In this document: piece after piece, positions 37,705 through 46,010 of the stretch
How the letters are laid out: each line of letters begins with the position of its first letter
Numbering within the stretch: position 1 is the first letter of the stretch
Source: the human T2T-CHM13v2.0 reference genome, Homo sapiens
Length of the DNA: 64,000 nucleotides
Reading direction: 5' to 3' (one strand)
Assembly: GCF_009914755.1 (NCBI RefSeq)
Contig: NC_060947.1
The notes under the pieces: model-generated
What the model was told of the DNA's origin: nothing
What the model saw: only the letters and a program-made list of their open reading frames with translations
Databases searched by the model: none
Program-made: the position numbers and the translations under genes

Positions 37705-37998
37705 ACCATAAATAACCATGCAAGAAAGCATAATATATATGCTAAATTCATAATTTCATAATCTCTTGGGATCTTAGCATATAAAACCTGGGTGTGTCTT
37801 TATTGATCATACAGCCTCATCCCTCACTTTAAAGATAAATGGTTTATTTTTATGTAGTCAAATTTTTCAGTGTTTTCTTTAAGACTCTGGGATTGTTGCT
37901 GTTGGTTCCTTTTCCTTGTTTGTTTGGTGTTATCGTCATACTTAGCACTACTTTTCTACTTCAAGATTAGAAAAAATATTGACCTATAGTTTCTTTCA

Positions 37999-38105
37999 TA
38001 TATATATATATATATATATATAATTATACTTTAAGTTCTAGGGTACATGTGCACAACATGCAGGTTTGTTACATATGTATAGATGTGCCATGTTGGTGTG
38101 CTGCA
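37999..38105 (-). mobile_element. L1PA 3'-terminal fragment (about 80 bp) with (TA)n tail
   Basis: ttatactttaagttctagggtacatgtgcacaac...gtgtgctgca; covers the same L1 coordinates as 39790-39870. Confidence 0.9.
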
Positions 38106-38332
38106 ACTCCAAAAGAGTCATGCCCATTTGAATTAATTTTGGAAATGTCTGTTTTTCTTTTTGTACTTGGTTCATAGCAACTGCCCTAGGGCACCAACCA
38201 TCCAGGGAAACTTTGATGCATCTTACACTTTGGTCCTGATGAGAGGGAGGCATAAATGAGAAAAGCTCTTATTCTGCAGTTAATACAGAGCAAGCGGCTG
38301 AGTTTGAAGCAGCCATGGAGAACATTCTAGAA

Positions 38333-38537
38333 CAGGGTTGTCTAGTCGTTTGGCTCCCTTGGGTCACATTGGAAGAAGAATTGTCTTGGGGCCACACATA
38401 AAATACACTAACAATCGCTGATGAGCTTAAAAAAAAATCTCATAATATTTAAAGAATGTTTACAAATTTGTGTTGGGCCGCATTCAAAGCTGTCCTGGGC
38501 TGCATGTGGCCCATGGGTGGTGGGTTGGACAAGTTTC
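38333..38537 (+). mobile_element. MER30-like DNA transposon fossil
   Basis: ggaagaagaattgtcttggggccacacataaaatacactaac...ttgggccgcattcaaagctgtcctggg...ggttggacaag; flanked by tctagaa. Confidence 0.75.
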
Positions 38538-42700: not shown

Positions 42701-45700
42701 TGTTGATCTTTCCAAAAAACCAGCTCCTAGATTCACTGATTTTTTGAAGGGTTTTTTGCGTCTCTATCTCCTTCAGTTCTGCTCTGATCTTAGTTATTTC
42801 TTGCCTTCTGCTAGCTTTTGAATGTGTTTGCTCTTGCTTCTCTAGTTCATTTAATTGTGATGTTAGGGTGTCAATTTTAGATCTTTCCTGCTTTCGCTTG
42901 TGGGCATTTAGTGCTATAAATTTCCCTCTACACACTGCTTTAAATGTGTCCCGGAGATTCTGGTACGTTGTGTCTTTGTTCTCGTTGGTTTCAAAGAACA
43001 TCTTTATTTCTGCCTTCATTTCGTTATGTACCCAGTAGTCATTCAGGAGCAGGTTGTTCAGTTTCCATGTAGTTGAGCAGTTTTGAGTGAGTTTCTTAAT
43101 CCTGAGTTCTAGTTTGATTGCACTGTGGTCTGAGAGACAGTTTGTTATAATTTCTGTTCTTTTACATTTGCCGAGGAGTGCTTTACTTCCAACTATGTGG
43201 TCAATTTTGGAATAGGTGCTGTGTGGTGCTGAGAAGAATGTATATTCTGTTGATTTGGGGTGGAGAGTTCTGTAGATGTCTATCAGGTCCGCTTGGTGCA
43301 GAGCTGAGTTCAATTCCTGGATATCCTTGTTAACTTTCTGTCCTGTTGATCTGTCTAATGTTGACAGTGGGGTGTTAAAGTCTCCCATTATTATTGTGTG
43401 GGAGTCTAAGTCTGTTTGTAGGTCTCTAAGGACTTGCTTTATGAATCTGTGTGCTCCTGTATTGGGTGCATATATATTTAGGATAGTTAGCTCTTCTTGT
43501 TGAATTGATCCCTTTATCATTATGTAATGGCCTTCTTTGTCTCTTTTGATCTTTGTTGGTTTAAAGTCTGTTTTATCCGAGACTAGGATTGCAACCCCTG
43601 CCTTTTTTTGCTTTCCATTTTCTTGGTAGATCTTCCTCCACTCTTTTATTTTGAGCCTATGCATGTCTCTGCATGTGAGATGGGTTTCCTGAATACAACA
43701 CACTGATGGGTCTTGACTCTTTATCCAATTTGCCAGTCTGTGTCTTTTAATTGGGGCATTTAGCCCATTTACATTTAAGGTTAATATTGTTATGTGTGAA
43801 TTTGATCCTGTCATTAGGATGTTAGCTGGTTATTTTGCTCGTTAGTTGATGCAGTTTCTTCCTGGCGTCAATGGTCTTTACAATTTGGTATGTTTTTGCA
43901 GTGGCTTGTACCGGCTGTTCCTTTCCATGTTTAGTGCTTCCTTCAGGAGCTCTTGTAGGGCAGGCCTGGTGGTGACAAAATCTCTCAGCATTTGCTTGTC
44001 TGTAAAGGATTTTATTTCTTCTTCACTTATGAATGTTAGTTTGGCTGGATATGAAATTCTGGGTTGAAAATTCTTTTCTTTAAGAATGTTGAATATTGGC
44101 CCCCACTCTCTTCTGGCTTATAGAGTTTCTGCCGAGTGATCAGCTGTCAGTCTGATGGGCTTCCCTTGTGGGTAACCCAACCTTTCTCTCTGGCTGCCCT
44201 TAACATTTTTTCCTTCATTTCAACTTTGGTGAATCTGACAATTATGTGTCTTGGAGTTGCTCTTCTCGAGGAGTATCTTTGTGGCGTTCTCTGTATTTCC
44301 TGAATATGAATGTTGGCCTGCCTTGCTAGGTTGGGGAAGTTGTCCTGGATAATATCCAGAAGAGTGTTTTCCAACTTGGTTCCATTCTCCCCGTCACTTT
44401 CAGGTACACCAATCAGATGCAGATTTGGTCTTTTCACATAGTCCCATATTTCTTGGAGGCTTTGTTTCTTTCTTTTTATTCTTTTTTCTCTAAACTTCTC
44501 TTCTCGCTTCATTTCATTCATTTGATCGTCAATCACTGATACTCTTTCTTCCAGTTGATCGAATCAGCTACTGAAGCTTGTGCATTCATCACATAGTTCT
44601 CGTGCCATGGTTTTCAGCTCCATCGGGTCCTTTAAGGACTTCTCTGCATTGGTTATTCTAGTTAGCCATTCGTCTAATTTTTTTTCAAGGTTTTTAACTT
44701 CTTTGTGATGAGTTTGAACTTCCTCCTTTAGCTCGGAGAAGTTTGATCGTCTGAAGCCTTCTTCTCTCAACTCGTCAAAGTCATTCTCCATCCAGCTTTG
44801 TTCCGTTGCTGGTGAGGGGCTGCATTCCTTTGGAGGAGGAGAAGCACTCTGATTTTTAGAATTTTCAGTTTTTCTGTTCTGTTTTTTCCCCATCTTTGTG
44901 GTTTTATCTACCTTTGGTCTTTGATGATGGTGACATATAGATGGGGTTTTGGTGTGGATGTCCTTTCTGTTTGTTAGTTTTCCTTTTAACACTCCGGACC
45001 CTCAGCTGCAGGTCTGTTGCAGTTTGCTGGAGGTACACTCCAGATCCTGTTTGCCTGGGTATCAGCAGCGGAGGCTGCAGAACAGCGAATATTGCTGAAC
45101 AGCAAATGTTGCTGTCTGATTGTTCCTCTGGAGGTTTCTTCTCAGAGGGGTACCCGGCCATGTGAGGTGGCAGTCTGCCCCTACTGGGGGATACCTCCCA
45201 GATAGGCTACTCGGGGGTCAGGGACCCACTTGAGGAGGCAATCTGTCCATTCTCAGATCTCCAGCTGTGTGCTGGGAGAACCACTACTCTCTTCAAAGCT
45301 GTCAGACAGGGACATTTAAGTCTGCAGAGGTTTCTGCTGCCTTTTGTTCAGCTATGCCCTGCCCCCAGAGGTGGAGTCTACAGAGGCAGGCAGCCCTCCT
45401 TGAGCTGTGGTGGGCTGCACCCAGTTCAAGCTTCCTGGCCACTTTGTTTACCTACTCAAGCCTCAGCAATGACAGGCGCCCATTCCCCAGCCTCGCTGCT
45501 GCCTTGCAGTTCAATCTCAGATTGCTGTTCTAGCAATAAGTGAGGCTCCATGGGCGTGGGACCCTCCGAGCCAGGCGCGGGATATAATCTCCTGGTGTGC
45601 CATTTGCTAAGACCATTGGAAAAGCACAGTATTAGGGTGGGAGTGACCCGATTTTCCAGGTGCTGTGTGTCACAGCTTTGCTTGGCTATGAAAGGGAATT

Positions 45701-45917
45701 CCCTGACCCCTTGTGCTTCCCAGGTGAGGCAATGCCTCGCCCTGCTTTGGCTCATGCTCGGTGTGCTGCACCCACTGTCCTGCGCCCACTGTCTGACAAG
45801 CCCCAGTGAGATGAACCCAGTACCTCAGTTGGAAATGCAGAAATCACCCATCTTCTGCATTGCTCACGCTGGGAGCTGTAGACTGGAGCTGTTCCTATTC
45901 AGCCATCTTGGAACCAC
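39785..45917 (-). mobile_element. Full-length L1 #3 (L1PA4/5-like), ORF1 and ORF2 frameshifted
   Basis: 5' end ggtggttccaagatggc; ORF1 pieces at 44147-44992; ORF2 pieces including the 491-aa frame at 42339-43814; young-type 3' UTR. Confidence 0.95.
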
Positions 45918-46010
45918 CCTACAGTTTCTTTCAATACTTTTCATGTTCAATGTCTTACACTTAAATTTTTCAACTACATGAAATTTATTTTGATATAAGA
46001 AATGAGGTTG

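What the first reader, a model, noticed from the sequence alone, without database searches (positions are those of the whole stretch)
37983..45933. One 7.9-kb insertion: full-length L1 + about 1.7 kb non-L1 DNA + second L1 3' end, inside a single TSD
Seen: L1 #3 has no TSD at its own 3' end (about 39785). Its 5' flank cctacagtttctttca (45918-45933) instead matches cctatagtttctttca (37983-37998; 15/16), which borders a (TA)n tail and an 80-bp L1 3' fragment. An old - strand L1M ORF2 remnant stops at 37998 (...aaaatattgacctatagtttctttca) and resumes at 45934 (atacttttcatg...aaatttattttgatataag). So 37999-45917 arrived as one unit. Inference: 38106-39784 (unique DNA with a MER30; the AluYa5 came later) was imported from another locus. 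One route is L1 3' transduction ending at a downstream L1 poly(A) signal. Another is break repair templated from a homologous L1 and its flank. It sits just upstream of TLR7.
Basis: partly seen in the sequence, partly recalled or inferred. Interest (0 to 1): 0.8.

Follow-up and report, generated by a model that had tools for sequence, protein, structure and literature searches.

The report
Chimeric L1 insertion carrying donor flank
A 7.9-kb block just upstream of TLR7 is one old L1 retrotransposition that dragged along 1.35 kb of DNA from beside another L1 310 kb away, and is capped by a short piece of a third L1 copy, most likely because the reverse transcriptase switched RNA templates.

Summary
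Window 37999-45917 is a single insertion bounded by a 16-nt target-site duplication that matches 15 of 16.

The donor of the non-L1 DNA is in the same genome at chrX:12,120,558-12,128,271, about 310 kb upstream within the FRMPD4 span. It is a full-length L1 followed by the same 1.35 kb. The flank differs at 43 of 1338 sites (3.2%), and these are the only two copies in the genome.

The donor has no 80-bp L1 fragment after the breakpoint. It also has no AATAAA or ATTAAA anywhere in the flank. The fragment lacks the two rare alleles that the donor L1 and the window L1 share in their last 30 nt. So "transduction ending at a downstream L1 poly(A) signal" is rejected.

Best reading: target-primed reverse transcription began on another L1 RNA and copied about 80 nt. 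It then switched into the interior of a read-through transcript of the donor L1, next to a 9-of-10 microhomology.

An added result: only the L1's 3' 2-4 kb is donor-like. Its 5' roughly 2 kb carries later-lineage alleles that the donor lacks. That means either a second template switch or later gene conversion.

This is a known kind of event in an unusual arrangement. No effect on TLR7 was tested.

The parts
37983..37998 (.). Left copy of the 16-nt target-site duplication
   Evidence: 15 of 16 identical to 45918-45933. These are the only two hits within 2 mismatches in the window.
37999..38023 (-). (TA)n-rich tail of the insertion, in the place of a poly(A) tail
   Evidence: Read. It lies between the TSD and the L1 3' end.
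38024..38105 (-). 82-nt L1 3' end fragment from an L1 RNA other than the donor's
   Evidence: BLAST 97.6% over 82 nt to the donor L1's 3' end. It carries the family-majority allele at both sites where the window L1 and donor L1 share a rare allele.
38106..39784 (-). Imported donor flank (1.35 kb without the later Alu), copied from chrX:12,126,915-12,128,271
   Evidence: Only two genomic copies exist. 43 of 1338 aligned sites differ.
38320..38545 (.).
   Evidence: 38 of the 40 scored matches cover only this part, at 79-85% identity. It is also present in the donor copy.
38810..39151 (+). Later Alu insertion (38828-39133) with perfect 18-nt TSDs at 38810-27 and 39134-51
   Evidence: family D20. 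Absent from the donor.
39749..39761 (-). Carried-along 3' copy of the donor L1's own TSD
   Evidence: 12 of 13 identical to the donor L1's 5' flank. 77 of 2000 shuffles reach this score.
39785..39791 (-). Short A7 tail of the L1, followed by T9-GAGAG as in the donor
39792..42000 (-). L1 3' part (end of ORF2 plus 3' UTR) that is clearly co-derived with the donor L1
   Evidence: Window-donor distance is 4.0% against a 5.2% mean (minimum 4.6%) to 15 other copies. Sister pair in the trees.
42001..44400 (-). L1 middle part, a zone of uncertain origin that contains the change point
   Evidence: Best change point is about 43250, range 42660-43420. Shared rare alleles and lineage differences are interleaved here.
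44401..45917 (-). L1 5' UTR and most of ORF1, of a later L1 sub-lineage than the donor's 5' end
   Evidence: Across the 5' 2 kb (43951-45917) there are 13 lineage-diagnostic sites; the one nearest the 3' end is 44479. The window has the derived allele at 13 of 13. The donor has the basal allele at 9 of 13. AU test p = 0.028 and 0.043 against a window+donor clade.
45918..45933 (.). Right copy of the TSD
45934..46011 (-). Old L1 ORF2 remnant that was interrupted by the insertion and runs into the TSD

Best explanation
One L1-driven retrotransposition, roughly 15-20 Myr old, produced the whole 7.9-kb block. The date is inferred from 3.3% divergence between the two X-linked copies and uses recalled ape divergences.

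Proposed steps:
1. An L1 endonuclease-type nick was made in an old L1 remnant.
2. Reverse transcription was primed on the tail of one L1 RNA ('A') and copied only about 80 nt.
3. The enzyme then moved to an internal site of a second RNA ('B'). B was a transcript of the full-length L1 at chrX:12,120,558 that had read through that L1's weak tail into at least 1.36 kb of flanking DNA within the FRMPD4 span.
4. It copied that flank, the donor's 3' TSD and tail, and at least the 3' 2-4 kb of the donor L1.
5. The 5' roughly 2 kb, up to a full-length 5' end, came from a later-lineage L1. The route was either a second, homology-guided switch between L1 RNAs or later gene conversion.
6. A 16-nt TSD closed the event, and a young Alu landed in the imported DNA afterwards.

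Shown: single TSD, donor locus, absence of the L1 fragment and of poly(A) signals at the donor, different origin of the 80-nt piece, and the mosaic 5' part.

Inferred: RNA rather than DNA templates, the order of the switches, and the date.
For: Donor found. Both halves of the non-L1 DNA have exactly two copies in the 3.1-Gb genome, the window and chrX:12,126,923-12,128,271 (the self-match and the donor are the only two full-length hits among 40 scored matches; 2 of 2 candidates).

Homology runs on through the L1 to its first bases and stops there. Donor DNA continues as unique sequence past the breakpoint. The donor L1 has its own TSD, and the window carries only the 3' copy of it (12 of 13).

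No AATAAA or ATTAAA occurs from the donor L1's end to 1.26 kb beyond the breakpoint. There are no A residues between the flank and the fragment.

The donor reads GTGTAGCACA 5 nt past the breakpoint, against GTGCAGCACA at the fragment's start. That is 9 of 10; 111 of 5000 random donor-side 40-mers do as well.

The fragment has the majority allele at both window+donor-specific sites. One of these is found in 0 of the other informative copies and the other in one of them, L035.

The TSD is 15 of 16 and unique in the window. The target reads AT/TGAAAG, close to the TT/AAAA motif (motif as quoted in PMC13174262, passage seen).

Against: - The junction is not in register with the microhomology. The observed join is 2-3 nt shorter than a clean microhomology-guided join would give, and the microhomology itself is only p of about 0.02.
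- The tail is (TA)n, not poly(A).
- Only two sites show that the 80-nt piece is not from the donor RNA.
- The donor L1's own TSD is modestly significant (77 of 2000).
- Continuation of the old L1 in the left flank was not demonstrable.
- No primate outgroup was available, so the empty site and the one-step origin are inferred.
- The window-donor L1 relationship in the 3' 4.1 kb rests on 5 strictly shared alleles. Three other unrelated pairs among 276 also reach 5. Clade support there is 89/95 and 60/91, not decisive.
- RNA ligation before reverse transcription would give the same product as a template switch.
Confidence: 0.7

Rival explanations
1. Classical 3' transduction. The donor L1 transcript read through and was polyadenylated at the signal of an 80-bp L1 fragment lying 1.36 kb downstream at the donor. 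The whole RNA was then copied in one pass.
For: The structure L1 - flank - L1 3' end - tail inside one TSD is what this route would give.
Against: The donor has unique DNA, not an L1 fragment, after the breakpoint. Only two copies of the flank exist, so no intermediate donor is present in this genome. Precise loss of an L1 fragment from the donor would be required.
Confidence: 0.03
2. Two separate insertions. First an L1 with an ordinary polyadenylated 3' transduction inserted. Later an 80-bp 5'-truncated L1 landed in its poly(A) tail.
For: Poly(A) tails are good L1 endonuclease targets (established knowledge), and a TSD made of A residues would be invisible.
Against: No A residues remain between the flank and the fragment. 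There is no AATAAA or ATTAAA anywhere in the 1.36-kb donor flank to end the first transcript there. There is a near-identical decamer at the donor breakpoint.
Confidence: 0.07
3. DNA-templated repair. A nascent cDNA or a broken end invaded the donor locus DNA 310 kb away at a microhomology and copied it (SDSA- or MMBIR-like).
For: The donor is on the same chromosome, 310 kb away. There is microhomology at the junction.
Against: The 16-nt TSD and the near-consensus nick site, with an L1 3' end plus tail on the priming side, are marks of target-primed reverse transcription. The copy ends at an L1 5' terminus, as transcripts do. An 80-nt L1 cDNA would be expected to invade the donor L1's own 3' end by homology, which would not import the flank.
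Confidence: 0.08
4. Chimeric RNA made before reverse transcription. The read-through RNA was cut near the breakpoint and ligated, or trans-spliced, to the last 80 nt of another L1 RNA. It was then copied in one pass.
For: RNA ligation is one of two mechanisms discussed for U6/L1 chimeras (PMC13174262, passage seen). The product would be identical.
Against: The 9-of-10 decamer lies in donor sequence beyond the breakpoint. That fits annealing of a nascent cDNA to a longer RNA better than ligation to a cut end. This evidence is weak.
Confidence: 0.1
5. One RNA only. Priming occurred internally on the donor transcript's own L1 tail. After 80 nt the enzyme jumped downstream on the same molecule and copied it all.
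For: It needs only one RNA species. Internal priming on A-rich tracts is known (established knowledge).
Against: The fragment lacks both rare alleles that the donor L1 and the window L1 share in their last 30 nt. Two specific reversions within 82 nt would be needed.
Confidence: 0.04

Closest known systems
L1 3' transduction (read-through of the L1 poly(A) signal, with the flank carried to a new site)
   Same: L1 followed by DNA that matches the 3' flank of a source L1 elsewhere. The source's tail and 3' TSD are carried along. One TSD encloses everything. The source is traceable by the unique flank.
   Different: The carried DNA does not end at a poly(A) signal with a poly(A) tail. It ends at an internal, signal-free point fused to a piece of another L1. 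The 5' part of the L1 is not the source's.
Chimeric L1 insertions by RT template switching (U6/L1 and other RNA/L1 chimeras; PMC13174262, passages seen; PMC4476161, listing and abstract start only)
   Same: The 3' part is a 5'-truncated L1 end with a tail. The 5' part is another RNA in the same orientation, fused without a poly(A) tract. There is one TSD and an endonuclease-type site.
   Different: The 5' partner here is itself a long L1 read-through transcript entered at an internal site. It is not a small RNA joined at its 3' end. The result looks like L1 - unique DNA - tiny L1.
Mosaic L1 elements from inter-molecular template switching or recombination (rodent cases and Gilbert et al. 2005, as cited in a passage of 10.1101/2022.08.06.500894)
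   Same: A full-length element whose 5' and 3' parts belong to different L1 lineages.
   Different: Here the 3' lineage can be tied to a named source locus by the transduced flank. Gene conversion after insertion is not excluded.

Membership tests
L1 3' transduction | L1 plus downstream non-L1 DNA enclosed by a single TSD pair at an endonuclease-like site | tested here: met
   TSD matches 15 of 16 and is unique in the window. The L1 has no TSD of its own. The site reads AT/TGAAAG.
L1 3' transduction | The carried DNA is the 3' flank of a source L1 at another locus | tested here: met
   chrX:12,126,915-12,128,271 lies directly after a full-length L1. The flank is about 96% identical by BLAST (43 of 1338 aligned sites differ). 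It is the only other copy in the genome.
L1 3' transduction | The carried DNA ends at a poly(A) signal and a poly(A) tail | tested here: not met
   No AATAAA or ATTAAA in the donor flank. It ends in an L1 fragment and a (TA)n tail.
L1 3' transduction | The whole L1 of the offspring is a copy of the source L1 | tested here: not met
   The 5' roughly 2 kb differs at 10 of 13 lineage-diagnostic sites. At 9 of these the donor keeps the basal allele, and at one it has neither allele. AU p = 0.028 and 0.043 against a window+donor clade.
L1 chimeric insertion by template switching | The 3' part is a 5'-truncated L1 end with a tail next to the priming-side TSD | tested here: met
   38024-38105 plus the tail at 37999-38023. 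The tail is (TA)n rather than pure A.
L1 chimeric insertion by template switching | The two parts come from different RNAs or loci and are fused in the same orientation without a poly(A) tract | tested here: met
   The fragment lacks the donor-specific alleles. There are no A residues at the junction.
L1 chimeric insertion by template switching | The switch occurred during reverse transcription, not by RNA ligation or DNA repair | not testable with these tools
   There is only indirect support from the 9-of-10 microhomology (111 of 5000 by chance).
Segmental (DNA-level) duplication | Homology extends beyond the repeat's ends into both donor flanks, and no TSD is present | tested here: not met
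   Homology starts at the L1's first bases. A TSD is present.

The most novel reading that the evidence does not exclude
The block is a two-switch A-B-A product. The reverse transcriptase of an active L1 left its own RNA after about 80 nt. It copied 1.35 kb of intronic read-through RNA plus 2-4 kb of an older L1. It then returned by homology to a younger L1 RNA and finished a full-length 5' end.

This would be a source-anchored primate example of copy-choice recombination between L1 RNAs during target-primed reverse transcription. It would show that such switching can mobilise signal-less genomic DNA and can build mosaic full-length L1s.
Probability: 0.4. Interest if true: 0.5.

Novelty: new variant of a known kind. 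Interest (0 to 1): 0.33.

Why it matters
The case shows that DNA beside an L1 can be moved without any downstream poly(A) signal, by a template switch into the middle of a read-through transcript.

Repeat annotation would break the product into three unrelated items: a full-length L1, unique DNA, and a tiny L1. Transduction-based source tracing would misread it.

The unique flank ties the 3' part of the L1 to a named source. That makes the mismatch of the 5' part interpretable as recombination between L1 lineages, which is usually impossible to anchor to a source.

The event put 7.9 kb of DNA 2.6 kb upstream of the TLR7 start. The L1's 5' end faces the gene. No regulatory effect was tested, and none is claimed.

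Tried and rejected
- Whole-genome DNA search with the left flank (37705-37998), to find other copies of the old L1 and test collinearity, found only the window itself.
- tblastn of the window L1's three frames and an nhmmer profile of 17 L1 copies against the flanks gave nothing significant for the left flank. Restricted DNA and protein alignments of the left flank were also not significant.
- A search with the donor's 5' kb returned 39 other copies at 85-90% identity, and the window copy was not among them. The eight I could use turned out to be an older outgroup, not the donor's close kin. The donor is on average closer to the first set (8.6%) than to them (9.9%).
- Dating the donor's internal Alu was inconclusive. 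The best of 40 scored matches among 2058 candidates were 93% identical.
- Paper searches for this insertion near TLR7 found nothing specific. The search on TLR7 + L1PA gave 11 papers, none about the locus by title or abstract. The four held supplement files of PMC13174262 have no hit for TLR7, FRMPD4 or the coordinates. PDF supplements were not visible.
- Three further searches on transduction plus template switching showed no description of an L1 - flank - L1-end chimera in their listings. I did not read those papers in full.
- Twin priming is rejected because all parts have one orientation.
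Full report
**What is there.** On the - strand the region reads as follows:
- TSD at 45933-45918
- full-length L1 from 45917 to 39792
- A7 tail at 39791-39785
- 1.68 kb of non-L1 DNA from 39784 to 38106
- an 82-nt L1 3' end from 38105 to 38024
- a (TA)n tail from 38023 to 37999
- TSD at 37998-37983.

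The two 16-mers match at 15 of 16 positions. They are the only two places in the 64-kb window, on either strand, within 2 mismatches of that word. The L1 has no TSD of its own: its 5' flank against its 3' flank scores no better than 888 of 2000 shuffles. The Alu at 38828-39133 has perfect 18-nt TSDs. The window L1 is dead. Its longest ATG-started open frame is 491 aa, and nine ORFs of 90 aa or more are listed, one of them on the + strand.

**The donor.** A whole-genome search with 38106-38809 gave 40 scored matches out of 2882 first-look candidates. Only two cover the query end to end: the window itself and chrX:12,127,564-12,128,271 on the opposite strand, at 96% identity. The other 38 hit only query positions 213-451, an interspersed repeat. 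The second half, 39152-39784, has exactly two candidates, again the window itself and chrX:12,126,923-12,127,545.

BLAST of 37500-46500 against 18 kb around that place shows collinear homology across the whole L1 and the flank. Window 45918 corresponds to donor 12,120,558, and window 38108 to donor 12,128,271. There are two large differences, each private to one copy: the window's young Alu, and a 300-bp antisense Alu in the donor L1 at the place matching window 44094.

By the hub's gene table the donor lies inside the FRMPD4 span, in the gene's orientation. Whether it is intronic was not checked.

**Direction of copying.**
- Homology begins at the first bases of the L1 and not before.
- The donor's flank runs on into unique DNA past the breakpoint.
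- The donor L1 has its own TSD. Thirteen nt abutting its 5' end match 12 of 13 nt at window 39749-39761, which is the window's copy of the donor's 3' flank. In the donor itself the match is 11 of 13. 77 of 2000 shuffles reach the score, so this is modest.
- The window block sits inside a TSD that cuts an old L1.

So the chrX:12.12 Mb locus is the source and the window holds the offspring.

**How the imported DNA ends.** It does not. After 12,128,271 the donor reads unique sequence. From the donor L1's end to 1.26 kb past the breakpoint there is no AATAAA or ATTAAA; the first is at 12,129,533. At the window junction there is no A tract between the flank and the fragment.

Five nt past the breakpoint the donor has GTGTAGCACA. 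The L1 reads GTGCAGCACA exactly where the fragment begins. That is 9 of 10, and 111 of 5000 random 40-mers of donor-side DNA do as well. The register is not clean: the observed join is 2-3 nt shorter than a perfect microhomology-guided join. This could be slippage or later mutation.

**Where the fragment comes from.** In their last 30 nt the window L1 and the donor L1 share two rare alleles. One is a G in GAAGTT, which none of the other informative copies has. The other is the loss of the T in TATAAT, seen in one of the others, L035. The fragment has the common allele at both sites. So it was not copied from the donor transcript's own L1 end. It comes from another L1 RNA.

**Mechanism.** The tail and the L1 end lie next to the TSD on the priming side, so they were made first. 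The simplest account has four steps:
1. Target-primed reverse transcription started on the tail of L1 RNA A.
2. After about 80 nt the enzyme switched to an internal site of read-through RNA B from the donor.
3. It copied the flank, the donor's TSD and odd tail, and the donor L1 from its 3' end.
4. The insertion was sealed with a 16-nt TSD.

The target reads AT/TGAAAG. This is close to the TT/AAAA motif quoted in PMC13174262 (passage seen). That paper names template switching and RNA ligation as the two candidate routes to RNA/L1 chimeras. I cannot separate those two routes here.

**An unexpected extra: the L1 is a mosaic relative to its donor.** Divergence between the two copies rises from 3' to 5':

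| Segment | Window-donor divergence |
|---|---|
| Flank | 3.2% (43 of 1338) |
| 3' 4.1 kb of the L1 | 4.9% |
| 5' UTR | 9.5% |

*First comparison set.* I aligned the pair with 15 other full-length copies. These came from the top 16 of the 39 non-self hits. L026 was dropped as rearranged.

| Region | Window-donor | Window to others, mean (min) |
|---|---|---|
| 3' 2.1 kb | 4.0% | 5.2% (4.6%) |
| Next 2 kb | 6.0% | 5.6% |
| ORF1 region | 6.9% | 6.8% |
| 5' UTR | 9.6% | 8.3% |

So outside the 3' 2.1 kb the donor is no closer to the window than a random family member.

*Trees on that set.* In the 3' 4.1 kb the pair is a clade with support 89/95. In the 5' 2 kb a window+donor clade costs 34.5 log-likelihood units, AU p = 0.028.

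*With an outgroup.* I added eight older copies. They came from 12 fetched out of the 39 non-self hits. Four were dropped as internally deleted or rearranged, and L037 lacks its last roughly 120 nt. AU p is then 0.043, and the 3' clade has support 60/91.

*Diagnostic sites.* The outgroup polarises 18 sub-lineage sites.
- The window has the later-lineage allele at 17 of 18. The exception is 40179.
- The donor has the earlier allele at 11, the later allele at 6 and neither at 1.
- In the 5' 2 kb the window is derived at 13 of 13 and the donor is basal at 9 of 13. Two of the differences are transversions. Five of the six 5'-part differences whose context I checked are not at CpG; 45850 is.

*Strictly shared alleles.* The pair shares 5 strictly private alleles in the 3' 4.1 kb. 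Four of 276 pairs reach 5, and the mean is 0.97. The pair shares none in the 5' 2 kb.

*Change point.* A change-point scan puts the break near 43250, with a range of 42660-43420. The statistic 2dLL is 10.5, against a null 95th percentile of 6.8 and a maximum of 11.9 in 300 simulations. Shared and differing sites interleave between about 41900 and 44400, so the boundary is not sharp.

*Caveats and reading.* The first comparison set was chosen by likeness to the window's 5' UTR, which biases distances but not the polarised site pattern.
- A copy cannot inherit alleles that its source lacks. So the window's 5' part came from a later-lineage L1, either by a second, homology-guided switch or by later gene conversion.
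- Alternatively, the donor's 5' part was overwritten afterwards.
- The derived alleles reach to within 67 nt of the L1's 5' end. That is easy for a template switch and tight for a conversion tract.

**Rivals.**
- *Transduction to a downstream L1 signal* is contradicted by the donor sequence.
- *A later, separate 80-bp insertion into a poly(A) tail* is disfavoured by the missing A tract and the missing signal.
- *DNA-templated repair* is disfavoured by the TSD, the priming-side L1 end, and the block ending at an L1 5' terminus.
- *Internal priming on the same RNA* is disfavoured by the two diagnostic sites.
- *RNA ligation before reverse transcription* remains open.

**Old L1 in the flanks.** The right flank and the TSD align on the - strand to L1 ORF2 nt 4952-5038 (protein score 57, 0 of 500 shuffles). 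The DNA score is 52 against a shuffle maximum of 44. Weak collinear nhmmer hits reach 47503. So the TSD word is itself part of the old L1. The left flank beyond the TSD gives only a non-significant best hit, though it is roughly collinear.

**Age.** The flank K2P distance is 3.29%. Using recalled X-linked human-orangutan and human-macaque divergences, not any call, this suggests roughly 15-20 Myr. The insertion should be present in great apes and absent from Old World monkeys. This was not tested.

**Literature.** 3' transduction and RNA/L1 chimeras by template switching are established (PMC13174262, passages; 10.1101/2022.08.06.500894, passage citing Gilbert et al. 2005 for switching between two L1 RNAs; PMC4476161 and PMC9311842, listing and abstract start only). 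Searches, and the held supplements of PMC13174262, showed nothing on this locus. By title or abstract, none described an L1 - flank - L1-end chimera.

**Verdict.** This is a known class of event in an unusual arrangement. No functional claim about TLR7 is warranted.

Noticed in passing
window 45550-45981 (+): A 143-aa ATG-started open frame runs antisense through the L1 5' UTR and out into the flank, pointing towards TLR7, whose start is at 48550. It could be chance or an ORF0-like antisense frame.
   Followed up: no
window 35505-36683 (-): The 5' end (profile positions 8-923) of another L1 lies only 1.3 kb from the insertion, in the same orientation. Two long L1s therefore sit in tandem orientation within 13 kb upstream of TLR7.
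   Followed up: no
L009 3558-10000 (chrX:12,120,558-12,127,000): The donor L1 has three deletions (32, 17 and 18 bp) in its 5' UTR/ORF1 region that none of the 15 other copies or the window shares. It also has an antisense Alu with a short TSD at 12,122,313-12,122,612. The Alu's age relative to the transduction event could not be settled.
   Followed up: partly
G000 C22:39616, C4:41070, C21:38058, C15:41125: Four L1 5' regions lie about 38-42 kb from the starts of four different chromosomes. They score nearly the same against the donor 5' kb (88% identity, 1306-1315 bits). They look like copies within a shared subtelomeric duplication.
   Followed up: no
window 39776-39791 and L010 915-945: The donor L1's 'tail' is not a plain poly(A). 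Between the L1 end and its 3' TSD lie about 24 nt: a few A residues, a T run, GAGAG, then more A residues. The same is conserved in the window copy. Its origin is unknown.
   Followed up: no
window 37400-37700 and 46012-46310: Older Alus flank the insertion on both sides and interrupt the old L1 remnant. This limited the collinearity test.
   Followed up: no
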